Of a stretch of DNA of 64,000 nucleotides, positions 31,829-48,107 are shown piece by piece. Position 1 is the first letter of the stretch; each line of letters opens with the position of its first letter. A model generated the notes under the pieces. The model searched no databases. It was not told the origin of the DNA and saw only the letters and a program-made list of their open reading frames with translations. The position numbers and the translations under genes are program-made. The stretch is from Escherichia phage Pollock: the sequence record NC_027381.1; one strand, given 5' to 3'.

Positions 31829-31855
31829 AAGCCTCTTCCATGAGGCTTTTTCTTT
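31829..31855. terminator. Bidirectional terminator between convergent transcription units
   Basis: aagcctc-ttccatg-aggctt stem-loop flanked by an A-run upstream and a T-run downstream; sits between the plus-strand block and the minus-strand vRNAP gene. Confidence 0.7.
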
Positions 31856-34800
31856 TAGTACAGACTTACTAAAGGATGGATAGTAAATCCATTTAGTGCT
31901 GTACCCATTCCAACGTTATAACTTAAGCTACCTGTTGCTAAGTTTGCTTCCATGATATTAGGTAATCCAGATTCAGCAGTATTACCAAACATAAGGAATA
32001 ATGCTCTTAATGGGTTTTCCCTAATCGTTCTTAAGATAATTTTCTGAATACGAATCTTATAGTTTAAGAACCATGTTAAACCAATAGCATCCAAATAGAA
32101 TCTGGTGCGACTAGGTAATATGTCATAGTTCACAAACTCATCCATTACTCTATTCAATGCACTATCTTTATCCATTGGATTACGAGAACGAGTAGTTAAA
32201 TGCTTATATAGAGAGTATTTAGCAACGAAGTCACCATACTGAATTGAACGATTCAATAAGAAGTACACATTACTATCTCTAGATAAAGTGATTTCTTTAG
32301 CAACACGTTTAACACTATCTGGAATACCAGAAGTGTACTCATCCATTTTAGTAAGTAGTTTATCCTTCAAAGAGTAATCATCCTGCTGACCTAAATCTTC
32401 TGCGATAGTTGGTAACAAACCAGCTTTAATTAAATCAGCTACTGGGTTACGAGCTTGAGAATCTTTAAGTTCAGATATTTTTCTCTGATACTCTTCAGCC
32501 ATTCTTGGATTATGGTTTACAGCCAGATAATGAGAATACTCGTTAATTAATTTCTCATTTCTTCTGTACTCCTCAGCAGCCAGTACAGCAGTAGACATAT
32601 CTTTAGCCATAGTAATTGGGCTAATACCTACCGTAGCCAAATGTACCATGTTAGATAAGATATTCCCTGCGGATACAACTACTGAACGAACTACAATCCA
32701 GTCCTTCATTTCCTTCACAAATTCCATCAAACCACGTTCACCAAGTCTTAGATAGCGTGCAGCATTCTTACCTAAGAATGTTTCTGCAATGTTTACAAAT
32801 GCTTTCTGAAACTCTTTAGAGAAATTGGTTTGACCAGTCCATAGATTCAGTACAGAAGGTTCACGATAACCAAATGCATTATTCAGTAAATCCTTACGTA
32901 CTTTAATTTTCCCATTAGGCCAAATACGTTTGGCTGCTTCTTTCATCTCAATAGGCATCAGTTCATAGATTTCTTTTAACTGATGGTCTGTAGAGTTTTC
33001 ATCTATAGTGATGTATTGATATGCTTTTCCTTCTCTAGCATCCTTCTTATAGATTTCACCAAGTCTTTCTAAAAGCATCTCATTGTATTTGGCAGCCTGA
33101 ATCTCTTCAGCAATACGACCTTCCCAAGCAGCTAATACTTTAGTGAAGTCATTATCTACATTTAATTGAGCTTCTCTATTAGCTCTTGGCATTTGGTACG
33201 AGTATCCCATTATTGAACCAGCGCGGTTTAAAACAGGCTGCATCTGTCCATCATAGTTCTGAGGCATTGGTTTAGAAGCATCAAATAAATCATTGATAGC
33301 AGCTTGTTTATTAGCTGATACCTTGTTCTTTTCTGATGTCTTCCATGCACCCGGGGTCATAGAACCATTAACACTTCTGCCTGTAATTGGGTTTACTCCA
33401 CCTACGGTGCTTTGCAGGGTACTCATTACACCAGCAATCCAACGAGGTTCACCACCATTGTTAGAATGGTAGTAGTACATTGGAGTTTTATCTGTATCTG
33501 CTGGGTCACGTTTAACTTGAGCACCTCTGGTATAGCCTCTACGAGATAAGCTTGGTTCATCCTTAATGGATGCAATAATTACTTTTTTGTTTGGGTCAGT
33601 GATAGTAGGAGTAAATCCTTTAACTGCTGCCAAAGAATAGTTATTACCAGATTTAGCTAACTCAGCGCCTTTAAGGCTTTCATAGTATTTGAGAGTAAAA
33701 GTCATACCATTATTATCTGGTTCACCTTTAGTCATCTCTCTACTGATTACATTACTTACTGTTTCTTTATCTGCTTGAGATAATTCAGTAAGAGCACTCA
33801 ATGAAGCCAAGGTATCAATTAACTGAGTAGCTATTTCAACAGCATCATTTGATGGTCTTTCTCTACCAGTACCAATCAAACGTGCAATAGCAGCAGCATT
33901 TGATAATTGGTATGCCAGTGGAGATACTCCATGCACCATCTGTTTAGCTAAACCATGAGCAGATTTAATATAGAATGCAGAGTTTTGAGCACCTGCTTTT
34001 TGTAACTGAGATTCTATTAAATCTATCTCTTTAGCTAACTCATTTGGATTAGTTAATAATTCATTTAAACGAACCAAGTCATACCCATTAGCAAACAGGT
34101 ATGCCATATCTGTATTGGCAACTACTCTCTGAATAGCCTCTTTCTCATTTTGGTTTAAAGAAACAAACGTTTTTTCAATCATACCCGGAACCATCTCACG
34201 AATAATCTGACGTGCTCTATCAGCAGCCATATTTTTCTGAGTTAATAAGGTATGAATACTACTGTTGGTTTCATTAGAACCAATAAATTCATTAATGAGT
34301 TCAGCGATAGTACCTAGTTTTCCATCCTGATGAATGGTCATATAAATGTGAGTTATAGCCTCACGTACATCATGAGCATCTTGTTCATTAAATACTGCTG
34401 CTCCAACAGTAATACCAAATGCTACAGACTTAGGTACTTTCTTCTCTACTTTGCTTAACTGCTTACGAATAGAGTTACCAAAAGCTCTCAACCTATCTTG
34501 AGTAGCTTCAGTGATTTCTTCTGTACCTCTACCAATTCTGGTAAAGAGATTATCTCTTGCCTGACTATCTACATGACTAATGTTCTTAGCCAGTTTAGAT
34601 AAACGAGAAGCAATATTTGTATCTCTTAAAGATTTAGTAGCTAAGCCAGATAACCAAGTAAGAATCATATTAGTTAAATCACCAATACGTTCTCTAAGAG
34701 ATGTAGCCTGATTCTGTCTGGTACGTTTAACACTAATTTGAGACAGCTTATTTCTTAATTGTTCATTGGTTTCAGCCAATGCAATAAAGTTAGCAAGTCT

Positions 34801-37800
34801 GTTAGTACGACCAGTAGCATCAGTAGTAATAGCTGTATTGCCAAATACTGCATCATATCTTTGTTTAGCTAATGCCATTTCATTAGCAGAACGATTGTTA
34901 GGGTCAGTTAAGAAATCTTCTACTTTTAAGTTTTCTCTGGCTTGCGAGTACAAACTACGTGCAACCAGAACACTTGGAGAAAAGTTCTCTAACCCATATT
35001 TCATAGATACTTGCAGCATCTTGAATACAAATGCTTCTTTCTCACTCATGTTAAAACCATGAGCAATTAATGCATTTGGTGAGTCATCAATTTCTGGGTC
35101 AATGCTATCTACCAAAAGTTTATCTTGGTAATGCTCTAAACCAGATATTTGCTGACCAGTATTTTTAATTACTTTAATGATATTGGATTGTAAGTAATCC
35201 AGAGTATCTGTTAGATGATTTACATGTTCCTGAGATGCTTTACCTGCATCCAATTTATTAAATAATGTTTCTGCATCTAATCTATTAATGTTGTTAGCAT
35301 TTTGCTGAGCATAGCTTGTTGTATCTCTGGATTTAACAGGATTGGTAGCATCAGCCAAAGCAACGGTATGGCCTAACAAACGAGTCCAGTAAGAAGTAAT
35401 GTCTGGATTAGAGCCAATAGCAAACAGACGTTTAATAGATTCAGCTAATTGCTTAAGTACCTTTGTTACAGTTCCTGTAATAGTTTTTTTAGTCATTGCA
35501 TCAATCATCCTTGGGTTAACAAGACCCCATGCAATGAATTCAGCAGTAGCCTGAGCCATATCACCAGAAGCAATATGATTATTAATCAAGTCTACAACAC
35601 TATCTGTTTCAGGATTCGTACTAGAATACTCATTAACAAATTTAGTCATGAGTGCTTCTATTGAAGCAATCTCTACTTTTTGAGCAGGAGTTAATGCTTC
35701 TGGATTACTGTAATAATTGTGAACAGCATTAGCAGTAGCAGCATGAATTAACTCATGCATTACAGTCTCAATAGACTGAGAACCAATATAGATATTCTGT
35801 CCCTGTGTAAGCCCTAAGAATGAGTTATTAAACTCAACCTTAGTATCAGGTGTCATTTCCTGTTGAACGGCTGAGAGAGCTTCTGGAGAGCCTACATACA
35901 CATTAATATCTTCAGGAATAGAGTTAGCAATCTTATCTAATACGAAGCTAGTAATTCTATTTTGACGAGAAGGTAAAGATTTAGCTGCTTCTTTAATAGC
36001 AGCAATCACATCACCTTTAGACAGTACTTTAATTCCATCATGTCCTGATACATTTCTTCCATTTTTAGCCAATGCTTCAATCATTTGACGAGTAGGAGGA
36101 ATAGTTACTCTACCTTTAGGGAGAGATACTGATTCCATAGTAGGAAGTTCTGTATTAGCAATTAACTGTTCTAAAGGAGTTCTGGTATCAATTGCTTCTT
36201 TATCAGTCTGCTTACCATTCTGAACATTGAATGGAATATTAGCCCCGGTCATTTGGTTAATAGAAGTAACTGCTTCTCCTCCTAATAAACCTTGTTTAAT
36301 AGCAGTTTGAGTAGCAGCTTCTTTTTTAAGAAGTGTAGTAAATGCTTCTAACACTTCTGGGCTAGTAGGTGAATTGGTTTCATCTGCTCCAATCATTTCC
36401 ATAATTCCACGGAAAGATTGTTCCAAACGTGTATCTGCATCTGGACCTAATTCTTCAGTTAGATTTACTCCTTCCATCGCTTGCTCAAAACGATTAGTAA
36501 AATCTTGAAGTAAATCAAATTCATTCCAACTTTGCAGAACACCTTGGTTAATAGCTTGAGAACCAGTATCTAAATGAGCTACAGCATTAATATAACCATC
36601 AAATACGTTAAGGGCATTGTTAGGGTTAATATCACGAGCAATAGCCTGCATAGCTGCTTCTACAGATTGAACCAATAAAGGCATTACACGAGTACCTGGT
36701 TCAGTATAAGTAGGAGTATCTACACCAAAAGTAGCACGACGCATTTTACCATCCAGATTTCTACGTCCTCTGGATTCCATACGATAAATATCAAATGTGA
36801 CTCTACCTTCTTCACTCAGAAGAATACCTTCATTTAATTTAGCTGCATCAGTATTACCAGCAGTAAACCAAGAGTTAAAGATAGGCATCTGAGTAATCAG
36901 TTCTCTCTTAATCTCGTTATATTGCTGCTGAGAAAGAGATTCATACTTAGATAATTTACCTGCTTCTCTAAGTTCTTTTTCTTTAGCTTCTACTACTTTA
37001 TTCCAACGAGACATGAATACTTCATGCATTACAGCAGCAGCATAAACCATCATCTTGCCGCGATTGATTACAGTACCAAATTCATTAGCAATTGATTCAT
37101 TTACTGCTGCACCAATACCAATTTTGATGTTTTGGGTAATTGCTTCAATCTGCTCGCTAGTAAACTCAAATTTAGTTACATCTTTTCCTAAATTGATAGG
37201 AGCACCAATTTTTACCCAAGAACCATTACGAAATACTTGAGCAGTAGTTAATTCATTAGTTGTATTGGTCAAATCATTAATATGAGCAATTGCAGCATCT
37301 CTATCTTCCTGATTAGTAGCTGAATCTACTGCTCTTAATGCTTCTGTGATTGCTTCGTAATAACCATTAGCAATACCCATAGCAATCTTTCTATTGATTG
37401 CATTAGCACCACCAGAATAAACAGTAACTGTTACTGGATTTTTAAGTAATCCTCGACCTATTTGGATTGGATGTTCTACATCCTCTCCTTCAACAATATT
37501 TACATCACCAATTAGTTTTGATGCAGCAAGAGTTACCCTTACCTGATTTTTCAAGCGTTCAATATCTCTCATCTCTTTTTGTTGGAATTGTCGAGATTTA
37601 TTTTTAAGGGCAGCTAACCTGTTAGGGATATTACTGTAAGCATCCATCATGTTGTTGATGTATTGCTGTGAGCCAGCAGCAGCAGTTTTATACAGGTCTA
37701 AGAATCCCGGTTCTTCAGCAGCATCATTGTATAGACGGTCTGATTGCCCATAGAACAAACCACCTTTCTCTAACTTATTCAGTAAATCTTGGTTCACGTC

Positions 37801-40800
37801 TTTTAAACCAAGCTGAACAATAGAGTTAAATGGTCCATTAGTTACACCATCAAGCTCCAGCATCACATGAGTCTGGAATGAGGATTTACCTTGTTCTACT
37901 GCTAATTCATATTGAGCTTGTGCATATAAAGCATGGAGTGTTTTAGTTTTCTCCTTACCTGCTTTTACAGCTTCTAAAAGAACCTCTGCATCAGCATCAC
38001 TAATTGAATCTTGGTTTTCAGCAGCTTTTAGAATATTGATAGCATCTCTAAATAAACCAGTACTGATAGCTTTATTTAGCTTATCTCTGGCAGTCTCAGA
38101 AGAGAGTTTATCAACAGCAATATCCAATCCTTGAGCAATAGCATAATCAAGAAATGCACCATGTTGAGGATTGTTGAGTTCAATAGTAGAAGGTTCAACA
38201 GTAATTAATTCACGATGTAATTTAGCTGACTGAGGGTTTAAATCCCCTGAGTTAAGCATCATACGGAAGTTACTAATTACGTTATATGCAAAATAAATAG
38301 GTGTATTAGCCAGAGGTAATCCAGCTTCTGACATACGAGTTAAACCGTTAATCAGAGTATTAATATCTCTTTCAATAGTACGGTTAGAACCTTGAATGGA
38401 TTTCAGATGAGCACCATTAGCATTCTCTTCTGATTGAATGCCTAACATTCTACCAATCCATTCTGTACCTAATTTATCCAGCATAAGGTCATGAAGACCC
38501 ATGTTGATATAATGAGGTTGTTTACTGGCTTTGTTACGTGCAGCAAGCATCTTTTCAGGAATATCCTGACCACCACCATTTTTAACTTTAGTGCTCTGAC
38601 CTTTTGGTGGAGTACCAAAGTATGCTCCTGCTTTTTCTCTCTGAGGATTAGTTAATTGACCTAAGAGGTCATTGGAATCCTTCATTAAGTCTACTAAACG
38701 TTTAGCAGCTTCAGATTCTTCATTCATACGAATGAATATACGAGAGTTTTTAATGTTGGATTCATTTACTTTAGTAGAACCAACAGCAGCTAATTCACTG
38801 TTTTTAACAACAGATTCTTGAACCAGATTAGCATTAATCATTACGTTCAATACTTCAGTTGCTAGTGCTTTAGATACAGCATCACGAACAGAGATAGGAG
38901 TATTAGGGTCAGCATTAATACCTAAGATTCCAAAAATCTCTCTGCTTAAATAATCAATAACATTTTGCCGGTCTGTACCTACATTACGTAATAAATCTGT
39001 TTGCTCTACAGTAGGTTTAGTTTTGTTATCTAAACCAAGAATATCCATTACTGTACGGTCATCATTGAATGTAGTTTCAACTGCATTACGTACAAACCAC
39101 TGCATCATACCAGCAGTCATTGCTTCAATTACTGGCTGAGGTAAGAAGTAAACATTTTCACCATTGATATTTCTTACTTCACTAAAATATTCGACAGGGT
39201 ATGTTTCCCAGAAGATACGTTGACCTTCAGGAGTTAATTTACCCCAAGATTGAATTAACGATTGTTCAATAGCAGGGACTAAACCAGCAAATTGACGTAG
39301 TACTTTTACTTCTTTCTCTGTTACTTGTTCTGGTTTAATAAATCCTTTAAACAGATTTTGAATCTGAGTAATAGGATTAGAACCATTGGTAAAAATGTTA
39401 TTAAGTCTTCCAGAGAAATTAGAAGTTCTCAGGAATGCAGAACGTTTACCTGTAGGTTTAAACCATTTTTTAACTTGGTTAGTAGCCTGATAGTTCTTAT
39501 CTGCTTCTGAAGTAGATTTAGCATCAGAACGTACAGTTTCTGATTGCAGACTACTCAGAATATCGAAATTAACACCTTTATCTAAACCAAGTTCTAATTG
39601 AGACTCATCCATTAAATCAGTCTCAACTTCAGTTGGTTTTTCCTGAATCTGAATTTCAGATTCAACTACATCTGGTTTCTCAAATAGTTCTCCTTGAACT
39701 GGAGTACTAGTAGGAGCTTCTGTAACAGCTTCTGGCTGTGTTTCTACAGTCTCAGAAGGTGTTTGTACCTGTTCTTCAGAAACCTGTGCAGAAGCCTCTA
39801 TAGGAGCTTCTGATTCTTGAGTTGAGACTAATTCCTCTGTAGCAACTGGAGCAGATTGTGCTGGCACAGATACAGGTTTACCATCTACTAATTGACTAGT
39901 AATGGTATGTGCTTGACGAACAGCATTAGCATCATTACGAATTTCTTTGATTAATCCTTTAGAACGTACCGGATGATACGTCATAGGATTTCCATCTAAA
40001 GATAAATATGGTTGTCCTGTAGTTGGATTAATTACTTCTACAGGTTGATTACCAGTAAAGTTTTGAGCAGCCTGTTCAAATGCATTAGCTTTAGTTTCCA
40101 TGTGCTCTGCAAAACGGTTTAAATGGTCTAATAAACCTTGAGCACGAGCAGTATCCCCTAAAGATAATGCACGGAAGATACCTTGCTGATACTGTTGAAT
40201 ACCAATAAATCCATCAGAACCTTTACGTACATCTTCTCCTACTTGGCTCATTGCTTTACCAGTAGCAGAGATAATTTTTAATTTATCTACATCCTGCTGG
40301 TTCAAACCAATGGTTTCTGCTGAATTAACTAAACGGTCAGCAACTTCTGGAGTAATAGAAGATGCATCTAAATTCATTTGAGCCAGAACAGATTTAATGT
40401 TCTTTTGTACTTCAGGAGATTTATAAGTTTCTGGAGTAATTTCAGAAGGTAAAGACTCCATAATCTTATTCATTTCTTCTGGAGTCAGTCTGAAGCTTTC
40501 AGCAGTAGTTTTAACTGCTTGTACATCAGGATGGTTCAGCACAGCATTGATATTATCAATAGCTGTTTGATACTGAGCTTTCTCTTCTTCTGGTGCAACT
40601 TCCATCTGTGCTTGAATTTGAGGTAAAGCTTCCTCATAAGCAGAGATAACATTATTACCTACAACAGCTAAATCTCTACGAGAAGCTTCATCCAAATTAC
40701 GTTCTTTAATTGCACGGGAAATTCTCAAAATAGAATCTGGAGAACTAATTTCCTCTTCAGGAATAGCTTTAAATACTTCTTTAGCAGCAGGTTCAGTAAC

Positions 40801-42468
40801 AGCATCAACAGCTTTAACTACAGTTGGTTCTGCTACTGCTTCAGCATCTGTTTGTTGTACTGTTTGTTTAACTGATTCATTAGCAGCAGATACAGTATTC
40901 CTAAAAGATTGTGCTCTGGATTCTGCTTTACGGGCTTCTCTTGCTTCAAATGCTTCACGACCTTGTTGAGCACCTTCTTGAATTGCTCTAGGTGTTTCAC
41001 TGATAGCCGAGCCAAAAGCACCCATACCCGCACCAGCAATAGCAGACTCAACAGCGTTTGAACCAATGTCTTCAGCAAGGGACTGAGATTCATCAGCAGA
41101 AGTCCGTATGCCGAGGTTAGAAGCAAATTGACCAGTAATCCCTTGGGAGGTTTCTTCAATAGTTTCTTTGAAAGCATTGTTAAGAACTCGTGAGGAAGCA
41201 CTAAAGAATCCCGTACCTTCAAGTAAGGAAGGAGTGAATATACGAGATTCAAATGGAGCAGCAACCTTACCAGTCAGAGCACCAAGAGTACCTGCTACCA
41301 AAGCAGTGACATTACCTGTTTGAGTACGTACTTGTCTTCTGGCTTGCTCTGGAGACATACCATCAGCAATTAAATCACGATACATAGGTGATTTTTCTGC
41401 TAATTGCTTATCAGTCATTCCATCAATCTGGTCTAATGTTTGTTGGGCATTAGAACCTGCTTCTTGGAAACCTACATAACCAACCAATGCTCTTTCAGCA
41501 GCATCCTGAAGACGTTTTCTACCATACTGAGTTGAAGCTAGCTTGGTAGCAAAATCTGCACCATATTCTTCAGCTAATTGTTTAAATGCTCCACGAGAAG
41601 CAATCTTACCTACTAAACCACCAGTTAATATATCTGGAGCAGATTCAGCAATAAGTGTAGTTAATGCTCCCGGAGCACCACCATATTGTTCAGCAGTATT
41701 AACAAACTGACGTAATTGTTCTTTAGCCCCTGCAACTAAAGGATTATCACCTTTAGCTATATCAGCAGCTTCACGAGCTTCAGCACCTTGTTTAAATCTC
41801 TCTTTTTCTGCTTCAATTACAGATTGTTCATATTGAACACGCGGAGAATATTGAGAACGTTGTTCTTCAACATACTGTTTTAATGGTACATCAATACCCA
41901 CTTGTTCTAATAAAGTAGGTTGTCCTAATTGTTCTTCTTGACCAGTAACATTAGCAATTAAATCTTGAGTATTTTGTAATGCTAAGTTACCCAAACCAGT
42001 AACAAATCTAGCTGTATTACCTGCCCATATCTGTGCAGCATTACCTACATCAGATAATTCTATAGGAGCATTTTCAAATATATCTGTATTGGCTTGAGCA
42101 ATATTTAAAGACAGTTTGTCTCTAGCTGCCTGAGGACCATATTTCTGCTGTAATGCAGATAAAGGCATATCTCTTAAATCAGCCAAATATTGCTCAGAAG
42201 GATTAGTTTGAGTAGCAGTAGTAGTAGTTCTTTGTCCAGATAGCATCTGATTCATCTGTTCTCTTGTATATTTAGGACCAGATTCTGCTAACTGGATTGC
42301 TTGCTGTGCTCTTTGATACTGTGGAGAACCTACAGCAAAGTCTATTTCTACCCCGGGTACTGGAGTACCTAACTCTAATTTCTTCTGTTGAGTAGCTATA
42401 TTTAATTGTTGTGTTTTTTGTAAGGCAGCATTAGCTAATTCTTGCTGTTTCTCAAATCCGGTGGCCAT
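31855..42468 (-). CDS. Virion-encapsidated RNA polymerase (vRNAP; N4 gp50-like), 3537 aa
   Basis: Single 10.6-kb ORF; a protein of about 3500 aa adjacent to the virion-protein block is the hallmark of N4-like podophages; synteny with the downstream late genes matches N4. Confidence 0.85.
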   Translation of the reverse strand: MATGFEKQQELANAALQKTQQLNIATQQKKLELGTPVPGVEIDFAVGSPQYQRAQQAIQLAESGPKYTREQMNQMLSGQRTTTTATQTNPSEQYLADLRDMPLSALQQKYGPQAARDKLSLNIAQANTDIFENAPIELSDVGNAAQIWAGNTARFVTGLGNLALQNTQDLIANVTGQEEQLGQPTLLEQVGIDVPLKQYVEEQRSQYSPRVQYEQSVIEAEKERFKQGAEAREAADIAKGDNPLVAGAKEQLRQFVNTAEQYGGAPGALTTLIAESAPDILTGGLVGKIASRGAFKQLAEEYGADFATKLASTQYGRKRLQDAAERALVGYVGFQEAGSNAQQTLDQIDGMTDKQLAEKSPMYRDLIADGMSPEQARRQVRTQTGNVTALVAGTLGALTGKVAAPFESRIFTPSLLEGTGFFSASSRVLNNAFKETIEETSQGITGQFASNLGIRTSADESQSLAEDIGSNAVESAIAGAGMGAFGSAISETPRAIQEGAQQGREAFEAREARKAESRAQSFRNTVSAANESVKQTVQQTDAEAVAEPTVVKAVDAVTEPAAKEVFKAIPEEEISSPDSILRISRAIKERNLDEASRRDLAVVGNNVISAYEEALPQIQAQMEVAPEEEKAQYQTAIDNINAVLNHPDVQAVKTTAESFRLTPEEMNKIMESLPSEITPETYKSPEVQKNIKSVLAQMNLDASSITPEVADRLVNSAETIGLNQQDVDKLKIISATGKAMSQVGEDVRKGSDGFIGIQQYQQGIFRALSLGDTARAQGLLDHLNRFAEHMETKANAFEQAAQNFTGNQPVEVINPTTGQPYLSLDGNPMTYHPVRSKGLIKEIRNDANAVRQAHTITSQLVDGKPVSVPAQSAPVATEELVSTQESEAPIEASAQVSEEQVQTPSETVETQPEAVTEAPTSTPVQGELFEKPDVVESEIQIQEKPTEVETDLMDESQLELGLDKGVNFDILSSLQSETVRSDAKSTSEADKNYQATNQVKKWFKPTGKRSAFLRTSNFSGRLNNIFTNGSNPITQIQNLFKGFIKPEQVTEKEVKVLRQFAGLVPAIEQSLIQSWGKLTPEGQRIFWETYPVEYFSEVRNINGENVYFLPQPVIEAMTAGMMQWFVRNAVETTFNDDRTVMDILGLDNKTKPTVEQTDLLRNVGTDRQNVIDYLSREIFGILGINADPNTPISVRDAVSKALATEVLNVMINANLVQESVVKNSELAAVGSTKVNESNIKNSRIFIRMNEESEAAKRLVDLMKDSNDLLGQLTNPQREKAGAYFGTPPKGQSTKVKNGGGQDIPEKMLAARNKASKQPHYINMGLHDLMLDKLGTEWIGRMLGIQSEENANGAHLKSIQGSNRTIERDINTLINGLTRMSEAGLPLANTPIYFAYNVISNFRMMLNSGDLNPQSAKLHRELITVEPSTIELNNPQHGAFLDYAIAQGLDIAVDKLSSETARDKLNKAISTGLFRDAINILKAAENQDSISDADAEVLLEAVKAGKEKTKTLHALYAQAQYELAVEQGKSSFQTHVMLELDGVTNGPFNSIVQLGLKDVNQDLLNKLEKGGLFYGQSDRLYNDAAEEPGFLDLYKTAAAGSQQYINNMMDAYSNIPNRLAALKNKSRQFQQKEMRDIERLKNQVRVTLAASKLIGDVNIVEGEDVEHPIQIGRGLLKNPVTVTVYSGGANAINRKIAMGIANGYYEAITEALRAVDSATNQEDRDAAIAHINDLTNTTNELTTAQVFRNGSWVKIGAPINLGKDVTKFEFTSEQIEAITQNIKIGIGAAVNESIANEFGTVINRGKMMVYAAAVMHEVFMSRWNKVVEAKEKELREAGKLSKYESLSQQQYNEIKRELITQMPIFNSWFTAGNTDAAKLNEGILLSEEGRVTFDIYRMESRGRRNLDGKMRRATFGVDTPTYTEPGTRVMPLLVQSVEAAMQAIARDINPNNALNVFDGYINAVAHLDTGSQAINQGVLQSWNEFDLLQDFTNRFEQAMEGVNLTEELGPDADTRLEQSFRGIMEMIGADETNSPTSPEVLEAFTTLLKKEAATQTAIKQGLLGGEAVTSINQMTGANIPFNVQNGKQTDKEAIDTRTPLEQLIANTELPTMESVSLPKGRVTIPPTRQMIEALAKNGRNVSGHDGIKVLSKGDVIAAIKEAAKSLPSRQNRITSFVLDKIANSIPEDINVYVGSPEALSAVQQEMTPDTKVEFNNSFLGLTQGQNIYIGSQSIETVMHELIHAATANAVHNYYSNPEALTPAQKVEIASIEALMTKFVNEYSSTNPETDSVVDLINNHIASGDMAQATAEFIAWGLVNPRMIDAMTKKTITGTVTKVLKQLAESIKRLFAIGSNPDITSYWTRLLGHTVALADATNPVKSRDTTSYAQQNANNINRLDAETLFNKLDAGKASQEHVNHLTDTLDYLQSNIIKVIKNTGQQISGLEHYQDKLLVDSIDPEIDDSPNALIAHGFNMSEKEAFVFKMLQVSMKYGLENFSPSVLVARSLYSQARENLKVEDFLTDPNNRSANEMALAKQRYDAVFGNTAITTDATGRTNRLANFIALAETNEQLRNKLSQISVKRTRQNQATSLRERIGDLTNMILTWLSGLATKSLRDTNIASRLSKLAKNISHVDSQARDNLFTRIGRGTEEITEATQDRLRAFGNSIRKQLSKVEKKVPKSVAFGITVGAAVFNEQDAHDVREAITHIYMTIHQDGKLGTIAELINEFIGSNETNSSIHTLLTQKNMAADRARQIIREMVPGMIEKTFVSLNQNEKEAIQRVVANTDMAYLFANGYDLVRLNELLTNPNELAKEIDLIESQLQKAGAQNSAFYIKSAHGLAKQMVHGVSPLAYQLSNAAAIARLIGTGRERPSNDAVEIATQLIDTLASLSALTELSQADKETVSNVISREMTKGEPDNNGMTFTLKYYESLKGAELAKSGNNYSLAAVKGFTPTITDPNKKVIIASIKDEPSLSRRGYTRGAQVKRDPADTDKTPMYYYHSNNGGEPRWIAGVMSTLQSTVGGVNPITGRSVNGSMTPGAWKTSEKNKVSANKQAAINDLFDASKPMPQNYDGQMQPVLNRAGSIMGYSYQMPRANREAQLNVDNDFTKVLAAWEGRIAEEIQAAKYNEMLLERLGEIYKKDAREGKAYQYITIDENSTDHQLKEIYELMPIEMKEAAKRIWPNGKIKVRKDLLNNAFGYREPSVLNLWTGQTNFSKEFQKAFVNIAETFLGKNAARYLRLGERGLMEFVKEMKDWIVVRSVVVSAGNILSNMVHLATVGISPITMAKDMSTAVLAAEEYRRNEKLINEYSHYLAVNHNPRMAEEYQRKISELKDSQARNPVADLIKAGLLPTIAEDLGQQDDYSLKDKLLTKMDEYTSGIPDSVKRVAKEITLSRDSNVYFLLNRSIQYGDFVAKYSLYKHLTTRSRNPMDKDSALNRVMDEFVNYDILPSRTRFYLDAIGLTWFLNYKIRIQKIILRTIRENPLRALFLMFGNTAESGLPNIMEANLATGSLSYNVGMGTALNGFTIHPLVSLY

Positions 42469-42542: not shown

Positions 42543-43958
42543 TTATCTCGTAGATTTATTCACTTTTGGATTACCTAATGTATCCTCAAGGAACTTTCTT
42601 AACTGTTGTCGTTGTCCACTGTAATCAGGAACAACTGGTTGGAATGATTCCACAGGAGTACCAGAAATATTAGCTCTAGGTAGTTTTCTCTGAAACTCAA
42701 TTAAAGGAGCATTTGCTTCTTTAAGAAGTGATTCTTGAGATTTATCTACCAGTCTTAATGCATCAGTTAAAGCTTGTTTAGCAGCAGCATTACTTGCTGT
42801 TTTCTTAGCTTGTTCTGCATTTCTTTCTACAGTACCAAATGAAATAGATACCCCATCTGTAAACCAATTAGGAGATAACGATTGTTCCATGATATACCCA
42901 ACAGTGGCTGGCGTAGCATTGGGGTATTTTTTCTTAATACGAGTATATGCTTCTGTAGCTTCATCTGGGTCTGATAATCTAGACTGAAAGCTTTTGATAA
43001 CATCATCTGCTTTAGTCTTCTTATCATCCTGTAGATTGAATACAGTAGGGTCAATACCAGAACTAAGAAATGCAGCATTAACTTCCTGTATTGCATCCTG
43101 CTTGTATTGGTCTGCTGCTTCTTTATTAAGAACACTTTGGTTCTGAATAATAGTTGCTTGTTCAGGAGTAGGAGCACCTAATGTACTAATGTTCTGGGAT
43201 ACAGCAGTAGCAACCTGATTACCAGTAACAGGGTTAACATTAAATTTCTTCTGCAATTCAGCAGCTTTAGCCCCAATAGGTTTATCTGGATTATCCAATA
43301 CCCATTGGTTTAATTCCTGAGCATAATTTCTTAAACCAATACGTTCTTCAGCAGCAAGCTTTCTTTCTGCATTTGCAGATGCTCTGGTAGCACGAGATTC
43401 AGCTAGTTGTGCCTGTCTTAAACCAAGCTCTGCTAATTGCTGTCTACGATTAGTTAAATCACCATATAGTTGACGAGCATTAGCAAAATTAGCTTCATTT
43501 TGTCTAAGGAATGCTTCTGCCTGATTAGGATTACTAGCCAATAAAGAATAGAACTGGTTCTCATATGGTTGAGATGCCTGTTCTTTCTGTAGATTCTCTA
43601 ATTGAATCTGACCAGAAATATCTTGTCTTAACTGCCCCGGTCTTGTAGCTAAAATTTGGTTAATAGCTGATTGGTCTACAGCAGCACCAAATCTACTTCT
43701 TAAATTATCAGCAGCAAACTGTTGTCTGGCTGCTTCTAATGAAGCAGGGTCAGTAAAACCAAGTAATTCATTTTGTAATGCAGCAGTGTTTTGAGTACGT
43801 GCAGTATTAAAATTGATATTACTTAGTTCTTGCTGTCGTTGGACAGGAGCCAATAAACCAGAAAGAGCATCTCTGATGCTTTGAGCACCTACTTGTTGGA
43901 GTCTTGCTATTCCTGTTAAATCAGGAGCATCAATATTTCTCCATGTTATCTGAGCCAT
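42543..43958 (-). CDS. Virion structural protein (N4 gp51 position)
   Basis: Gln/Ala-rich 471-aa ORF in the late block upstream of the vRNAP gene. Confidence 0.45.
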   Translation of the reverse strand: MAQITWRNIDAPDLTGIARLQQVGAQSIRDALSGLLAPVQRQQELSNINFNTARTQNTAALQNELLGFTDPASLEAARQQFAADNLRSRFGAAVDQSAINQILATRPGQLRQDISGQIQLENLQKEQASQPYENQFYSLLASNPNQAEAFLRQNEANFANARQLYGDLTNRRQQLAELGLRQAQLAESRATRASANAERKLAAEERIGLRNYAQELNQWVLDNPDKPIGAKAAELQKKFNVNPVTGNQVATAVSQNISTLGAPTPEQATIIQNQSVLNKEAADQYKQDAIQEVNAAFLSSGIDPTVFNLQDDKKTKADDVIKSFQSRLSDPDEATEAYTRIKKKYPNATPATVGYIMEQSLSPNWFTDGVSISFGTVERNAEQAKKTASNAAAKQALTDALRLVDKSQESLLKEANAPLIEFQRKLPRANISGTPVESFQPVVPDYSGQRQQLRKFLEDTLGNPKVNKSTR

Positions 43959-43967
43959 GATTACTCC

Positions 43968-44432
43968 TTAGAGACGATTTTTATTTAAGTAGGCTTGAAC
44001 GTCTTCTTCTTTACCAGCGTAATCAGAAGTACGTCCTCTGATTCTGTCTTCAAGGGCTGTGTTATATGCTTGTCTTTGGTTTGCTAGATTAGTGTTATAT
44101 GCGTTTCTTTGGAAATTTAACTGGTCTTTAGCTAAACCAAGATTCTGCATACCTGACCATGCTTGGAATATAGAACCTAATCCTTGTAAGGTAGGGGAGA
44201 TGATTCCTTGACTCTGAAATCCAGTTGACGGGTCAGTACCACCAAATAAAGTGCGTGCAGTATCCCCATTCAACCAATCAGAGAATGCAGAAAACATTCC
44301 TGAATTACCTAATGCAGAAGTATCTACAGTAGATAAAGGTGTGTTTAATATACTACTTTGTGTTGGATTATAGTTTTGGTAAACCAAAGGTAATTGCTGT
44401 TGGTTCATACCAAAGTTTAAATCAAAAGCCAT
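43968..44432 (-). CDS. Virion structural protein (N4 gp52 position)
   Basis: Late-block ORF; position only. Confidence 0.45.
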   Translation of the reverse strand: MAFDLNFGMNQQQLPLVYQNYNPTQSSILNTPLSTVDTSALGNSGMFSAFSDWLNGDTARTLFGGTDPSTGFQSQGIISPTLQGLGSIFQAWSGMQNLGLAKDQLNFQRNAYNTNLANQRQAYNTALEDRIRGRTSDYAGKEEDVQAYLNKNRL

Positions 44433-44434
44433 AG

Positions 44435-46810
44435 TTAACTCCTCATAGAATTTAAGTCAGTAGGTAATGTTAAAGCATAATCAACATAATTCTCTATACT
44501 TTCTAAGGTAACAACACCTGGATTTGTACTTAAAGTTCTAGTAAAGAATTCATCTGGCTGTTCAAATAAATTAAAGAATGCAGAGTTAATTAATGCATCT
44601 ATATCAATATTAGGATTTATAGTTCCTAAAGCATCCATAGCATCTTCAATCTCTTCCATCTGCTTCTTATAGTTTTCAGCATTCTTCTGCATCTCTTTAA
44701 CGATATTTTGTAAATCTTGCTGTAGACGCATTTGAGCACCCTTAGCAACTGAAGGTACTAAATTCATTACTTCAGTAGCATAAGGGAGTCCTTTGTTACC
44801 TGTAGTACCATACGATTGATATGCAGATACTGCTCCATAGGTAAGCATTGCAATAGTAGCAATGAACATAATATTTGGACTAACAAACTTAGCTAAAATA
44901 GAAACACCAAAACTAATAGCTAAACCAATAGCTACTTGAGTAGTGATGTATACAGCTACAGCAGCAGCAACAGAAGTACCAGCAGCAGTAGCAGCACTTG
45001 CAGCAGCAGTAATACCAGCAGATAAAGTACCCAATGAATACACAGCAATTACTACAGCAATAGCTATAGTAACTACTTTAAATATTCCAGATTGATACCA
45101 CTTAGCTTTAGTAACTTGATATGAGTTAACTACAATATGTAAGCAGTCATATGTCATCTGAGTACGATGAACAATTTGTTGTGCATCTACAATATTTGCA
45201 CATAAGGGAATAAGAAATCCTTCATTATCTGGGTCAGATAAACTAGCTTCTCCAGTAATATTTACTGAATGCCCTTTGTATATATAGTTGATATGTTCTA
45301 ATCCACATATCTCTACTTCTTCATATTGAGTTTCAGATATCTGTTTTCTGAACAAGATAGTAGAAACATCAGCAGTCATTTCTACTGATGCATTAAGTAT
45401 GTTTACTACATTGATTGTAGCCTTATTACCTACGCTTCTAGTTACAGTACCAATACTGCCAATGCTTCCATTTTTTACAGTAAGGTCTGAATATTGATAT
45501 GCAATGGTAATATCATAAGGGTCTTGTCTTAGGCTTAATCTGTTAACAGGAGGTTTGCTATCAGTGTTAGAAATAGTACCTTCTTCATTAACATTCTCTG
45601 TATACCATTTAATATAATTTTCTTTATCGTTAGGAGATACCTGAGCCAGATATTTAAAGAACTCATGTAAGTAATCTATGGAAGATTCATACTTTGAATT
45701 TAAAGAAATACCCATTACAAAGAATGCATGGTCTATATCTTTAATATCTGGATTCTCATTTAAGGTATCCCCTAAATCTGTAAATCTGAGATTCAATTTA
45801 TTAAGTAGAGTTTTACTGGTTTTGAATTGTTCTGCACTGACATTATTTGGGTCAGTTAAATCTGTATTATTTACTCTTAAAGGTACAACAGGATAATAGG
45901 CAGAATCCCTAACTACATCAGTTAAGATTTTATCCAGTATAGGATAAGTTCCTGAACCAGCTTCATAAATAAAATATTTTTTACGAGATAGAGTACTTAC
46001 AACAACTGTAGTTGTAATAGTGGTTTCAGTCTTATCTTCATTAATAGTTGCCTGTACTGTAGTAACAGTTGAAGTTATTAAACCAAAATTATTATTAATG
46101 GTTTCATCAGTAGTAGTACCTTCTTCATCTCCTTCTTCATATGCTCTGGTTTCTGTAGTTACTTCAGGAGTACCCGGAGTACGTACACGATAAATTACCT
46201 GATAGTATTCAGAACCATAGTTAATATCTGAGAAGGAAACTTGTTCTGTAAAATCAATTTCAGAACCAGTACCCATTGTAATGGTGACTACACCATTATT
46301 ATCAATAGACCAGTCAATGGTAGCTGTAGAAGCTACTCCTGCTGGTGGATTACCCATACCACCATAGTCTGCATCCCAATCATATGTATTAGTCAGATAC
46401 CGTTCTATCCAATAAGATAGGTCAGCTACGTTATAATCTGACATTACAATAGATACTTCTTTTCCTTCATTTAATGAAGAAAGTACAGTCATCAAATCAT
46501 CGTAGTTAGGTACAACATAAAAAATAGAACCATCTGGTAATCCTAATGAATAATAATCTCTACCATATCTATATGCTTGTCTAATCTGAGTACCCATACC
46601 ATTCAAGTATGCTTGGTTTAAAGTACTTCCAATACCACTACCATTCATAACAGCAGTGGTAATAGTTTTCTGTAAAAAGTTTTCAGCATCATCTCCAGCT
46701 AAATTAACTGTAACTGAAGATACTGAAATAATTTTCTTTCTACTAAATAATCCCATATACATTAAAGGGGGCTTTCGCCCCCTCTCCTTAATATGTAACA
46801 CTAACTCCAT
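44435..46810 (-). CDS. Large virion protein with long hydrophobic segment (N4 gp53 position)
   Basis: 791 aa; contains an extended Ala/Val/Ile-rich hydrophobic stretch (VVTIAIAVVIAVYSLG...VAIGLAISFGVSILAKF). Confidence 0.45.
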   Translation of the reverse strand: MELVLHIKERGRKPPLMYMGLFSRKKIISVSSVTVNLAGDDAENFLQKTITTAVMNGSGIGSTLNQAYLNGMGTQIRQAYRYGRDYYSLGLPDGSIFYVVPNYDDLMTVLSSLNEGKEVSIVMSDYNVADLSYWIERYLTNTYDWDADYGGMGNPPAGVASTATIDWSIDNNGVVTITMGTGSEIDFTEQVSFSDINYGSEYYQVIYRVRTPGTPEVTTETRAYEEGDEEGTTTDETINNNFGLITSTVTTVQATINEDKTETTITTTVVVSTLSRKKYFIYEAGSGTYPILDKILTDVVRDSAYYPVVPLRVNNTDLTDPNNVSAEQFKTSKTLLNKLNLRFTDLGDTLNENPDIKDIDHAFFVMGISLNSKYESSIDYLHEFFKYLAQVSPNDKENYIKWYTENVNEEGTISNTDSKPPVNRLSLRQDPYDITIAYQYSDLTVKNGSIGSIGTVTRSVGNKATINVVNILNASVEMTADVSTILFRKQISETQYEEVEICGLEHINYIYKGHSVNITGEASLSDPDNEGFLIPLCANIVDAQQIVHRTQMTYDCLHIVVNSYQVTKAKWYQSGIFKVVTIAIAVVIAVYSLGTLSAGITAAASAATAAGTSVAAAVAVYITTQVAIGLAISFGVSILAKFVSPNIMFIATIAMLTYGAVSAYQSYGTTGNKGLPYATEVMNLVPSVAKGAQMRLQQDLQNIVKEMQKNAENYKKQMEEIEDAMDALGTINPNIDIDALINSAFFNLFEQPDEFFTRTLSTNPGVVTLESIENYVDYALTLPTDLNSMRS

Positions 46811-47432
46811 CCGCTACCTTTTTGGTAAATGCATCAACTGCACTTGTATCAAATCCTGTAGGTAGAGGAGTGCCATCATCAACCGTCTTACGAGTAATCC
46901 AAGTATCAGCAATTATCTTCAGAGCTTTCTGTTCAGCATCTCGTAAGAAACCTTCTTTCTGCTGTTTATATAAAGCTACCTGAGCACCAATAATTCCTGT
47001 TACTGAAGTACCATCAACTGTATCAGATATTTGAGCTATCTCAGTTTTAACCTTTTGAGCAATAAGGTCAGCATTAAGCTGTTGAAGTTCAATTTGTTTA
47101 TCTAACAATTGAAGTTCTTTATCTGCTTTCTCAAGTTCTTTATCTGCTAATTCAATTTGTTTATTAGCCAGATTAATTTGAGATTCAACTAAAAGGTTAT
47201 TGAGATAGGTCTTATCCTTTTCAATAAGAAAAGTGACAGCTTGAGCTAGTACTGCTGTTAACTGGCCTAAATATACTTCTGCATATTGAGTACCAGTAAT
47301 TCTGTCTTTATCCCACTGGTTATCTAGATGAGCATTGGCTGCTGACATCAACTCATCAAAGATACCAGAACCACCAACTACCTTAGTAGTTAGGTCTTCA
47401 TTTGTAATTGGATTGATAACAACAGCCATCAT
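46788..47432 (-). CDS. Virion structural protein with coiled-coil region (N4 gp54 position)
   Basis: Heptad-like repeat region LANKQIELADKELEKADKELQLLDKQIELQQ. Confidence 0.45.
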   Translation of the reverse strand: MMAVVINPITNEDLTTKVVGGSGIFDELMSAANAHLDNQWDKDRITGTQYAEVYLGQLTAVLAQAVTFLIEKDKTYLNNLLVESQINLANKQIELADKELEKADKELQLLDKQIELQQLNADLIAQKVKTEIAQISDTVDGTSVTGIIGAQVALYKQQKEGFLRDAEQKALKIIADTWITRKTVDDGTPLPTGFDTSAVDAFTKKVADGVSVTY

Positions 47433-48064: not shown

Positions 48065-48092
48065 TAAAAAAAGAGTGGGTTTCCCCACTCTC
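48065..48092 (-). terminator. Rho-independent terminator after the major capsid gene
   Basis: On the minus strand agagtggg-gaaa-cccactct stem-loop followed by TTTTTTT, immediately downstream of the capsid stop. Confidence 0.7.
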
Positions 48093-48107
48093 TTTGCACT
48101 TACTGCA

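What the first reader, a model, noticed from the sequence alone, without database searches (positions are those of the whole stretch)
44435..46810. Large virion protein with an extended hydrophobic Ala/Val/Ile-rich segment
The 791-aa late protein has a long stretch (roughly VVTIAIAVVIAVYSLG ... AIGLAISFGVSILAKFVSPNIMFIATIAMLTYGAV) that looks like several membrane-spanning helices inside an otherwise soluble protein. In podophages that inject large proteins, such segments belong to ejection proteins that form a channel across the envelope; this is a candidate for the conduit through which the 3537-aa vRNAP is injected.
Basis: inference. Interest (0 to 1): 0.4.

Follow-up and report, generated by a model that had tools for sequence, protein, structure and literature searches.

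The report
N4-type tail plug protein, not conduit
This gene encodes the single-copy "plug" that seals the tail tip of an N4-like phage; its long greasy stretch matches the part that corks the tail tube in solved relatives, so it is most likely the gate of the injection channel, a role already described for phages N4 and DEV.

Summary
The ORF at 44435-46810 (-) carries a ~90-residue hydrophobic stretch, with a 124-residue run free of D/E/R (shuffles: mean 34, max 88). The true start is Met19 (ATG at 46756), giving 773 aa rather than 791.

The protein is the ortholog of N4 gp53 and DEV gp74, the Schitoviridae tail plug. Evidence:
- PDB sequence hits 9YFT "Gp53" (4.5e-54) and 9ZE4 "N4 gp53-like protein" (3.8e-40).
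- Strict synteny: tail tube, plug, gp52-like, gp51-like, vRNAP.

In the N4 cryo-EM structure, residues 29-56 and 670-716 form a "hydrophobic knot" that corks the tail tube. These map to window residues 27-52 and 561-608, where the flagged segment begins. The plug is one copy per virion and is still present on empty N4 particles.

The conduit role belongs to the neighbouring genes: the 154-aa gp52-like outer-membrane complex protein, the 471-aa gp51-like periplasmic tunnel protein, and the vRNAP N-terminus.

The hydrophobic module is universal in the family (122 of 122 diverse full-length homologs). Its fate during infection is untested, so a secondary membrane-insertion role is not excluded.

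Verdict: new member of a known kind, low interest.

The parts
44435..46756 (-). Tail plug gene (N4 gp53 / DEV gp74 ortholog), 773 aa from Met19 of the 791-aa ORF; the stop codon is at 44435-44437
46757..46810 (-). Spurious 18-codon 5' extension of the mechanical ORF; it overlaps the tail-tube gene end and the intergenic hairpin
   Evidence: Homologs start at MGLFS. The upstream ATGs are absent in B2, S5, SP-076 and MY01.
46601..46678 (-). N-terminal helices (residues 27-52), equivalent to N4 gp53 residues 29-56, the N-terminal half of the 'hydrophobic knot'
   Evidence: Alignment mapping. AF2 helices 27-38 and 42-51 with pLDDT of about 87-93. N4 structure description in PMC12633501.
45089..46600 (-). 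Globular core with a long beta-sheet protrusion (residues ~53-556). In N4 and DEV this part sits outside the tail tube and binds the receptor-binding sheath or fibre
44933..45076 (-). First half of the hydrophobic stretch (residues 561-608: VVTIAIAVVIAVYS... AAVAVYITTQV), equivalent to N4 gp53 residues 670-716, the cork or 'hydrophobic knot' in the tail-tube mouth. It is preceded by the near-invariant KWYQSGxFK motif
   Evidence: Mapping. No alignment column between 558 and 608 has 10% or more charged residues across 140 homologs. Hessa dG is 0.0 for residues 561-579.
44807..44932 (-). Second half of the hydrophobic stretch (residues 609-650: an amphipathic helix with a conserved Gly turn, then IMFIATIAMLTYGAVSAY). 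It corresponds to N4 residues 717-765, which are not resolved and lie in the tail lumen
   Evidence: [quoted passage not shown]
44438..44806 (-). C-terminal helical tail (residues 651-773) with the GLPYA motif, a long predicted helix at 661-711 and the invariant R740-T741. It is presumed to lie in the tail lumen as the proposed 'ripcord'
   Evidence: AF2 secondary structure. Invariant columns. A C-terminal tail of median 127 aa follows the hydrophobic span in 122 homologs.
46764..46785 (-). Conserved RNA hairpin (AGAGGGGGC-GAAA-GCCCCCUUU) between the Shine-Dalgarno AAGGAG (46789-46784) and the plug start codon
   Evidence: Fold energy -23.1 kcal/mol, z = -4.9. Compensatory G:C to A:U change in B2, S5 and SP-076; MY01 has a different stem with a UUCG loop.
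46788..47432 (-). Tail tube gene (N4 gp54 / DEV gp75 / B2 gp34 homolog), the dodecameric tube that the plug seals
   Evidence: 9d83_C B2 Gp34 at 7e-108; DEV gp75 at 1.4e-33; N4 Gp54 at 2.8e-33.
43968..44432 (-). gp52-like ejection protein (outer-membrane complex), a real conduit candidate
   Evidence: 8vxq_A 'N4 gp52-like protein' (DEV gp73) at 2.8e-13; N4 gp52 9yf4_OA at 4e-11. phrog_2646.
42543..43958 (-). gp51 / DEV gp72-like ejection protein (periplasmic tunnel), assigned by synteny and the conserved N-terminus MAQITWRN(I/V)DAP
   Evidence: Weak hits to N4 '66 kDa protein' 11mn_A (0.025) and DEV gp72 8vxq_R (0.45), both at the N-terminus. phrog_6467 at 1e-155. Gene order matches N4.
31855..42468 (-). 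Virion RNA polymerase (N4 gp50 homolog), 3537 aa
   Evidence: N4 vRNAP chains 11gp_A and 9pnr_A at about 1e-183.

Best explanation
The gene encodes the tail plug of an Ithacavirus-like (Humphriesvirinae, Schitoviridae) phage and is the ortholog of N4 gp53 and DEV gp74.

Proposed mechanism:
1. One copy per virion caps the distal end of the dodecameric tail tube, which is the product of the gene immediately upstream. This step is shown for N4 and DEV and inferred here.
2. The large N-terminal core (residues ~53-556) lies outside the tube, where a receptor-binding tail protein holds it.
3. The first half of the hydrophobic stretch (residues 561-608) packs with N-terminal helices 27-52 into a compact hydrophobic knot of short helices. 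This knot is wedged into the tube mouth and keeps DNA and ejection proteins inside.
4. The rest of the stretch (609-650) and the C-terminal helical tail (651-773) run up the tail lumen, next to the stored gp52-like protein.
5. Receptor engagement displaces the plug sideways and pulls the luminal C-terminus out like a ripcord. The gp52-like protein, then the gp51-like protein, then vRNAP and DNA can leave and build the trans-envelope channel.

The hydrophobic segment is therefore the stopper of the channel, not its wall.
For: Sequence homology. The protein matches the two solved plugs: 9yft_FA 'Gp53' (N4) at 4.5e-54 over three stretches including the hydrophobic region, and 9ze4_M 'N4 gp53-like protein' (DEV) at 3.8e-40. 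It matches phrog_2220 at 3e-234.

Synteny. The gene order is identical to N4: MCP, gp55, tube, plug, gp52, gp51, vRNAP.

Residue mapping. N4 knot residues 29-56 and 670-716 map to window residues 27-52 and 561-608.

Published structures.
- N4 gp53 is the tail plug. [quoted passage not shown]
- DEV gp74 caps the tube with a 12:1 mismatch and is stabilised by the gp56 fibre. Deleting gp56 causes loss of DNA from virions (PMC12892993).
- The LIT1 homolog was detected in virions by mass spectrometry (PMC3715699).

Family-wide conservation. A profile search found 2,652 cluster representatives. All 122 full-length proteins among the 150 listed carry a hydrophobic span (median 93 aa) followed by a C-terminal tail (median 127 aa).
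Against: - Nothing was measured for this phage. Copy number, location and plug function are transferred from homologs that are 25% (N4) and about 14-17% (DEV) identical.
- This clade has no N4-type sheath (gp65) or obvious DEV-type gp56 fibre. It has two tailspikes, so the partner that holds and releases the plug is unknown.
- In the closest studied relative, Shigella phage B2, the plug density was too weak to identify, and no gp53-like protein was listed for it: the paper's table gives 'N/A', meaning no homolog found in the genome or the mass-spectrometry data (PMC11654681).
- AF2 places the hydrophobic helices with low confidence (pLDDT about 40-78). The knot is not reproduced by a monomer model, and I could not inspect coordinates.
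- The segment is hydrophobic enough for membrane insertion (Hessa dG about 0; median -0.7 across the family), which is more than a cork obviously needs.
- N4 empty particles were generated in vitro, so retention of the plug may not reflect infection.
Confidence: 0.83

Rival explanations
1. Dual-role plug. The protein is the plug in the virion. After receptor-triggered displacement, its membrane-grade hydrophobic helices and luminal C-terminus are released and insert into the host outer membrane. There they anchor the tail tip and/or nucleate assembly of the gp52-like outer-membrane complex. This would resemble the hydrophobic segments of siphophage tape-measure proteins, which leave the tail lumen first and enter the envelope.
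For: - The plug is by far the most hydrophobic protein of the whole ejection module, in both this phage and N4. No 19-mer of gp51, gp52 or their homologs scores below 7 kcal/mol, whereas the plug scores 0.0 to 3.3 here and -0.8 to 2.3 in N4.
- 93% of 122 diverse homologs have a 19-mer with Hessa dG of 1 or less.
- About 50 consecutive alignment columns stay almost free of charged residues (under 10%) across 140 homologs.
- Hydrophobic character is conserved while sequence is not.
- The only annotated PHROG families hit by the C-terminal module are tape-measure proteins: phrog_1533 at 4e-7, plus 2335, 1686 and 9959.
- Half of the hydrophobic span and the C-terminal tail are unresolved in N4 and lie in the lumen beside gp52.
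Against: [quoted passage not shown] - The tape-measure hits are sporadic (2 of 23 members for phrog_1533, 1 each for the others), so they are best explained by composition.
- No experiment places gp53 in a membrane.
- A single copy cannot line a ~35 Å channel.
Confidence: 0.12
2. The protein is an internal ejection protein whose transmembrane helices oligomerise into the channel through which vRNAP and DNA cross the envelope, in the manner of T7 gp14/gp15/gp16.
For: - The hydrophobic stretch is real and helical.
- The gene lies directly next to the ejection cassette.
- Some records annotate homologs as 'putative internal virion protein' or 'TMhelix containing protein'.
Against: - Homologs are solved as a monomeric external plug with a 12:1 mismatch and are retained on empty N4 particles.
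- There is no sequence or fold similarity to the solved ejection proteins. The neighbouring ORFs, not this one, hit DEV gp73/gp72 and N4 gp52/gp51.
- Pore formation has been shown experimentally for N4 gp52 and gp51, not for gp53.
Confidence: 0.03
3. The hydrophobic stretch is compositional low complexity (an Ala/Val/Ile-rich linker) with no specific structural role.
For: Sequence in the Ala/Gly-rich middle (residues 580-600) is poorly conserved, and AF2 confidence there is below 50.
Against: - The length (median 93 aa), the position (about 127 aa from the C-terminus) and the charge-free character hold in 122 of 122 representatives that are at most 50% identical to each other.
- The stretch is preceded by the invariant W553/F559 motif.
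- The equivalent N4 residues are ordered density in the cryo-EM map.
Confidence: 0.02

Closest known systems
Escherichia phage N4 gp53, tail plug of the 'tail-gating complex' (PDB 9YFT; PMC12633501)
   Same: - Full-length homolog: E 4.5e-54, 25% identity.
- Same gene position between tail tube and gp52.
- Same MGLFS N-terminus and an identical KWYQSGIFK motif leading into the hydrophobic stretch.
- Same architecture: core, ~90-100 aa hydrophobic span, then a ~125-150 aa helical tail.
- N4 knot residues align to window residues 27-52 and 561-608.
   Different: - 773 aa versus 885 aa.
- The N4 plug is held by the gp64/gp65 sheath, which binds NfrA. This phage has no such sheath and carries two tailspikes instead, so the trigger partner must differ.
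- The intergenic hairpin upstream of the plug gene is absent in N4, where gp54 and gp53 are 3 nt apart.
Pseudomonas phage DEV gp74, tail plug (PDB 9ZE4; PMC12892993)
   Same: - Sequence E 3.8e-40.
- Caps a dodecameric tube homologous to the window's tube protein.
   Different: - 14-17% identity.
- In DEV the plug is stabilised by the gp56-gp55-gp54 receptor-binding fibre that recognises LptD.
- The deposited model covers 502 of 740 residues and was fitted at 8.5 Å from an AlphaFold model, so it says little about the hydrophobic module.
Shigella phage B2 gp33 (hypothetical protein) and the orthologs in Salmonella phages S5, FSL SP-076 and SP-058 (Ithacavirus)
   Same: Direct orthologs: 773-775 aa, about 74-77% amino-acid identity. 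They share the flanking genes and the upstream hairpin.
   Different: None is annotated or assigned. The B2 cryo-EM study saw only weak, unidentifiable plug density and lists no gp53-like protein for B2.
Schitoviridae ejection proteins: N4 gp52/gp51/gp50-NTD and DEV gp73/gp72/gp71 (PDB 8VXQ). They are functional analogs of T7 gp14/gp15/gp16
   Same: Encoded in the same late gene block and part of the same delivery process.
   Different: - They are multi-copy (nonameric in DEV), stored in the tail lumen or around the portal, and lost on ejection. N4 gp52 and gp51 form pores in bilayers.
- No homology to the plug.
- In the window they are separate ORFs (43968-44432, 42543-43958, 31855-42468).
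Tail needle/plug gp26 of P22 and Sf6 (functional analog; established knowledge, cited in PMC11445570 and PMC12892993)
   Same: Seals the tail channel of a podophage after packaging and is released on receptor contact.
   Different: It is a trimeric coiled-coil needle with no hydrophobic module, no homology and symmetric insertion.
Hydrophobic segments of siphophage and myophage tape-measure proteins (phrog_1533, 2335, 1686, 9959)
   Same: Ala/Gly/Val/Ile-rich helical segments followed by a coiled coil. They sit in the tail lumen at the distal end. Profile hits are weak (best 4e-7).
   Different: The hits are sporadic across the family (2 of 23). The plug has no length-measuring role, no tape-measure gene context and a different overall architecture. 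The similarity is most likely compositional.

Membership tests
Schitoviridae tail plug (N4 gp53 / DEV gp74 family, phrog_2220) | Significant full-length sequence similarity to the experimentally assigned plugs | tested here: met
   9yft_FA at 4.5e-54 (three stretches, covering the N-terminus, middle and C-terminus). 9ze4_M at 3.8e-40. phrog_2220 at 3e-234.
Schitoviridae tail plug (N4 gp53 / DEV gp74 family, phrog_2220) | Same fold of the globular core as a deposited plug model | tested here: met
Schitoviridae tail plug (N4 gp53 / DEV gp74 family, phrog_2220) | [quoted passage not shown] | tested here: met
   compared with the N4 map and the B2 map.
Schitoviridae tail plug (N4 gp53 / DEV gp74 family, phrog_2220) | Signature architecture: an N-terminus beginning M-G (MGLFS in the largest group), the W-Y-Q-x-G-x-F motif, a ~90 aa charge-free hydrophobic span, and a ~125 aa helical C-tail with the invariant R-T | tested here: met
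   Invariant M1, G2, W553, F559, R740 and T741 across 140 sequences. Span and tail statistics. Charge profile.
Schitoviridae tail plug (N4 gp53 / DEV gp74 family, phrog_2220) | Hydrophobic residues fold with the N-terminal helices into a knot inside the tail-tube mouth | tested here: inconclusive
   Residues align to the N4 knot. However, AF2 monomer confidence in this region is low (pLDDT about 40-78), and neither coordinates nor multimer prediction were available.
Schitoviridae tail plug (N4 gp53 / DEV gp74 family, phrog_2220) | Present in virions as a single copy at the tail tip and required to retain DNA | not testable with these tools
   Known only for homologs.
Podophage ejection / channel-forming proteins (N4 gp52-gp51-gp50NTD; DEV gp73-gp72-gp71; T7 gp14-15-16) | Homology to a characterised ejection protein | tested here: not met
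   PDB sequence and fold searches with the plug return no ejection protein. The neighbouring ORFs do.
Podophage ejection / channel-forming proteins (N4 gp52-gp51-gp50NTD; DEV gp73-gp72-gp71; T7 gp14-15-16) | Multi-copy oligomer stored inside the particle, released on ejection, forming a trans-envelope pore | not testable with these tools
   For homologs the literature reports the opposite: one copy, external, retained on empty N4 particles.
Tape-measure proteins | Consistent profile similarity, tape-measure gene context (after tail chaperones, before distal tail genes) and a long-tailed phage | tested here: not met
   Only sporadic weak hits (phrog_1533 in 2 of 23 members). The phage is a podophage, and the protein's core is the plug fold.

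The most novel reading that the evidence does not exclude
The ~90-residue, membrane-grade hydrophobic module, universal in Schitoviridae plugs, is more than a cork. After receptor-triggered unplugging, it and the luminal C-terminus are pulled out and insert into the host outer membrane. They act as the pilot or anchor that positions the tail tip and nucleates the gp52 outer-membrane complex, working like a tape-measure protein in a short-tailed phage. The plug would then be the first membrane-active component of the ejectosome.
Probability: 0.12. Interest if true: 0.5.

Novelty: new member of a known kind. Interest (0 to 1): 0.15.

Why it matters
For this finding, mostly as a correction. The flagged protein is the gate of the injection channel, not its wall, and the real conduit candidates are the three genes just downstream.

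A modest practical gain concerns the Ithacavirus clade (Shigella phage B2, Salmonella SP-076, SP-058 and S5, and this phage). There the plug was left unidentified in the published cryo-EM work, and all orthologs are annotated as hypothetical. The assignment made here names it and corrects the start codon.

The open biological point is why every Schitoviridae plug carries membrane-grade hydrophobic helices, half of which are unresolved in the tail lumen. This is a reasonable target for cryo-ET and biochemistry, but it extends published models rather than opening a new kind of system.

Tried and rejected
- Pfam scan of the plug and four neighbours: no family for the plug.
- PHROGs: only an 'unknown function' family plus weak tape-measure hits. 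I followed the tape-measure lead by scanning the C-terminal module alone and then 23 diverse members. The hits are sporadic (2 of 23, and 1 of 23 for each of the others), so I treat them as compositional.
- Profile search of the C-terminal module against 1.84 billion representatives, to look for the module in other architectures. All top 150 hits are C-termini of full-length or fragmentary gp53-like proteins of about 230-920 aa. Weaker hits are not listed, so other contexts could not be assessed.
- A deeper-alignment AF2 run, to see whether the hydrophobic knot would be predicted confidently. The core improved to above 90 but the hydrophobic region stayed at about 40-78. Coordinates are not exposed, so contacts with helices 27-52 could not be checked.
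- The N4 structure paper in Structure 2025 (pmid 40318628) is not held in the library.
- A crude hydropathy scan, to test whether the gp51/gp52 homologs carry classical transmembrane helices. They do not, in either this phage or N4. This scale therefore does not identify the experimentally proven pore formers and cannot be used to argue that the plug is the channel.
- No dedicated topology predictor (TMHMM, DeepTMHMM) was available.
Full report
**1. Observation**

The hydrophobic stretch is real:
- Kyte-Doolittle 19-residue windows of at least 1.6 span ORF residues 571-656, with a peak of 2.31.
- ORF residues 575-668 hold 22 Ala, 12 Ile, 12 Val, no Asp/Glu/Arg and 2 Lys.
- The longest D/E/R-free run is 124 residues. 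In 20,000 shuffles of the same protein the mean was 33.7 and the maximum 88.
- On the Hessa biological scale, three 19-mers score 0.0, 1.9 and 3.3 kcal/mol.
- AlphaFold2 predicts four helices: 557-573, 582-590, 597-624 and 627-648.

No dedicated topology predictor was available, so these figures are proxies.

**2. Start codon**

The 791-aa ORF is 18 codons too long.
- N4 gp53, DEV gp74 and most of the homologs listed begin MGLFS. This corresponds to Met19 of the ORF, ATG 46756-46754.
- The ORF's first ATG lies inside the 3' end of the upstream tail-tube gene, whose stop is at 46790-46788.
- The orthologous regions of Shigella phage B2, Salmonella phages S5 and SP-076 and Klebsiella phage MY01 lack the upstream ATGs.

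The protein is therefore 773 aa. Residue numbers below count from Met19; add 18 for ORF numbering.

**3. What the window is**

The region is about 79-80% nucleotide-identical to the Ithacavirus phages Salmonella S5, FSL SP-076 and SP-058 and Shigella B2 (Schitoviridae, Humphriesvirinae). Reading along the minus strand, the gene order matches N4:

| Window ORF | Assignment | Evidence |
|---|---|---|
| 706 aa | portal | phrog_1216 at 2e-266 |
| 357 aa | gp57-like | |
| 395 aa | major capsid protein | N4 gene order; B2 gp36 'major capsid protein' at the syntenic position |
| 183 aa | gp55-like | N4 gene order; phrog_2130, unknown function |
| 214 aa | tail tube | B2 Gp34 7e-108; DEV gp75 1.4e-33; N4 Gp54 2.8e-33 |
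| 773 aa | the flagged protein | see section 4 |
| 154 aa | gp52-like | DEV gp73 2.8e-13; N4 gp52 4e-11 |
| 471 aa | gp51/gp72-like | conserved N-terminus, weak hits, phrog_6467 |
| 3537 aa | vRNAP | N4 gp50, about 1e-183 |

**4. Identity of the protein**

- Pfam finds nothing. PHROGs gives phrog_2220, 'unknown function', at 3e-234.
- A search of PDB sequences returns two specific hits. One is 9YFT chain FA 'Gp53' (N4, 885 aa) at 4.5e-54. The other is 9ZE4 chain M 'N4 gp53-like protein' (DEV, 740 aa) at 3.8e-40.
- An AF2 model from 35 homologs, and a better one from 140 homologs (mean pLDDT 82.4, residues 1-555 mostly above 90), give a globular core with a long beta-sheet.
- BFVD hits are all N4-like phage proteins.

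The fold is therefore specific to this family, and the protein is a clear ortholog of N4 gp53 and DEV gp74.

**5. What that family does (literature)**

*N4 (PMC12633501).* gp53 was identified by focused asymmetric cryo-EM and LC-MS as the tail plug. It has a globular core and a feather-shaped beta-sheet outside the tube, bound by one gp64/gp65 sheath protomer.
[quoted passage not shown] Purified gp52 and gp51 form channels in planar bilayers.
- The authors propose lateral displacement of the plug, with its C-terminus acting as a 'ripcord' for luminal gp52.

*DEV (PMC12892993).* gp74 is the conserved plug, capping the dodecameric tube with a 12:1 mismatch. It is stabilised by the gp56-gp55-gp54 receptor-binding fibre, and deleting gp56 causes DNA loss.

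*LIT1 (PMC3715699).* The gp74 homolog was detected in virions by mass spectrometry.

*B2, the closest studied relative (PMC11654681).* Only weak, unassignable plug density was seen, and no gp53-like protein is listed for B2. The ortholog does exist, as B2 gp33.

**6. Mapping the hydrophobic stretch**

In the family alignment:
- N4 residues 29-56 correspond to window residues 27-52.
- N4 residues 670-716 correspond to window residues 561-608.
- N4 residues 717-765, which are unresolved, correspond to window residues 609-650.
- The C-terminal tail is residues 651-773.

So the first half of the flagged segment is the cork. The second half and the tail lie in the lumen, and their structure is unknown.

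**7. Family-wide behaviour**

- A profile of the C-terminal module found 2,652 cluster representatives at E ≤ 1e-3, of which 1,224 were at ≤ 1e-30. In all 150 listed, the module is at the extreme C-terminus of the protein.
- All 122 full-length representatives have a hydrophobic span (median 93 aa, interquartile range 82-100) followed by a tail of median 127 aa. In 93% of them at least one 19-mer has Hessa dG of 1 kcal/mol or less, with a median of -0.7.
- Across 140 homologs, no column between residues 558 and 608 has 10% or more charged residues. Residues 609-628 tolerate charges, consistent with an amphipathic helix, and there is a near-invariant Gly626. Residues 629-643 are again charge-free.
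- Invariant positions include M1, G2, W553, F559, R740 and T741.

**8. Interpretation**

The best-supported mechanism is a single-copy tail plug.
- The core is held outside the tube by a receptor-binding tail protein.
- The hydrophobic helices, together with the N-terminal helices, form the cork.
- The C-terminus sits in the lumen next to the gp52-like protein.
- Receptor binding displaces the plug and starts the ejection cascade.

Shown here: homology, fold, synteny, residue correspondence and conservation. Shown only in homologs: location, copy number, and retention on empty particles. Inferred: the trigger and the ripcord.

The conduit candidates are the three downstream genes.

**9. What remains odd**

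In both N4 and this phage the plug is by far the most hydrophobic protein of the module. The proven pore formers gp51 and gp52 have no transmembrane-grade 19-mer at all. The C-terminal module gives weak hits only to tape-measure PHROGs, but sporadically, in 2 of 23 members.

This leaves room for a secondary role in which the released hydrophobic module enters the outer membrane. I rate that at about 12%. It is not supported by the N4 empty-particle data, though those particles were emptied in vitro.

This clade also lacks the N4 sheath and the DEV fibre and carries two tailspikes. The plug's holding and trigger partner here is unknown.

**10. Side observation: a conserved hairpin**

A GC-rich hairpin with a GAAA tetraloop (46785-46764, minus strand) sits between the Shine-Dalgarno AAGGAG and the plug start codon.
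- Its fold energy is -23.1 kcal/mol, z = -4.9.
- B2, S5 and SP-076 carry a compensatory G:C to A:U change. MY01 has a different stem with a UUCG loop followed by five T's.
- It could bring the Shine-Dalgarno sequence and the AUG into register, as in a split ribosome-binding site.
- Alternatively it could attenuate transcription or translation between the 12-copy tube and the 1-copy plug.

This was not resolved.

**11. Verdict**

It is a new member of a known kind and of low interest, apart from naming the unassigned plug of the Ithacavirus clade and the open question of why the plug's cork is hydrophobic enough to enter a membrane.

Noticed in passing
window 46764-46790 (minus strand); also L002 5018-5052, L003, L004, L005: A conserved RNA hairpin (stem GGGGGC/GCCCCC, GAAA loop) lies between the tail-tube stop codon with its Shine-Dalgarno AAGGAG and the plug start codon. 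B2, S5 and SP-076 have a compensatory G:C to A:U change. MY01 has a UUCG loop and a T5 tail. It may be a split ribosome-binding site or an attenuator setting the 12:1 ratio of tube to plug.
   Followed up: partly
window 46757-46810 (minus strand): The mechanical ORF start gives 791 aa, which is 18 codons too long and overlaps the tail-tube gene. The conserved start is Met19 (MGLFS), giving 773 aa. The tail-tube ORF also probably starts at its second Met (47429), because B2 Gp34 begins MAVVI.
   Followed up: yes
L002 2693-5020 (Shigella phage B2 gp33): B2 encodes a clear ortholog of this protein (775 aa, annotated 'hypothetical'). The published B2/Moo19 structural paper lists no gp53-like protein for B2 and could not identify the plug density. 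The plug of that clade can now be named.
   Followed up: partly
window 42543-43958, 43968-44432, 31855-42468 versus L001 (N4 gp50-gp52): None of the gp50, gp51 or gp52 homologs, in this phage or in N4, has a 19-residue window of transmembrane-grade hydrophobicity (Hessa sum under 4 kcal/mol), although N4 gp51 and gp52 form pores experimentally. The plug is the only strongly hydrophobic protein of the module.
   Followed up: partly
window 48068-48095 (minus strand): A strong intrinsic-terminator-like hairpin (12-bp stem plus a T-run) lies immediately downstream of the major capsid protein gene. This suggests read-through control of the gp55, tube, plug and ejection genes.
   Followed up: no
window 49312-50385 (minus strand): The 357-aa gp57 homolog has a very acidic N-terminal third. 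It falls in phrog_2120, labelled 'tail length tape measure protein', and RefSeq gives N4 gp57 the same label. This is an implausible label for a short-tailed phage. From its position between the portal and capsid genes, it is more likely a scaffold-like protein.
   Followed up: no
window 54951-57806 and 57853-61119 (minus strand): Two large tailspike genes (951 and 1088 aa) share N-terminal adaptor modules with many tailspike PHROGs. No N4 gp65-type sheath or DEV gp56-type fibre was seen, so the partner that holds and releases the plug in this phage is unknown.
   Followed up: no
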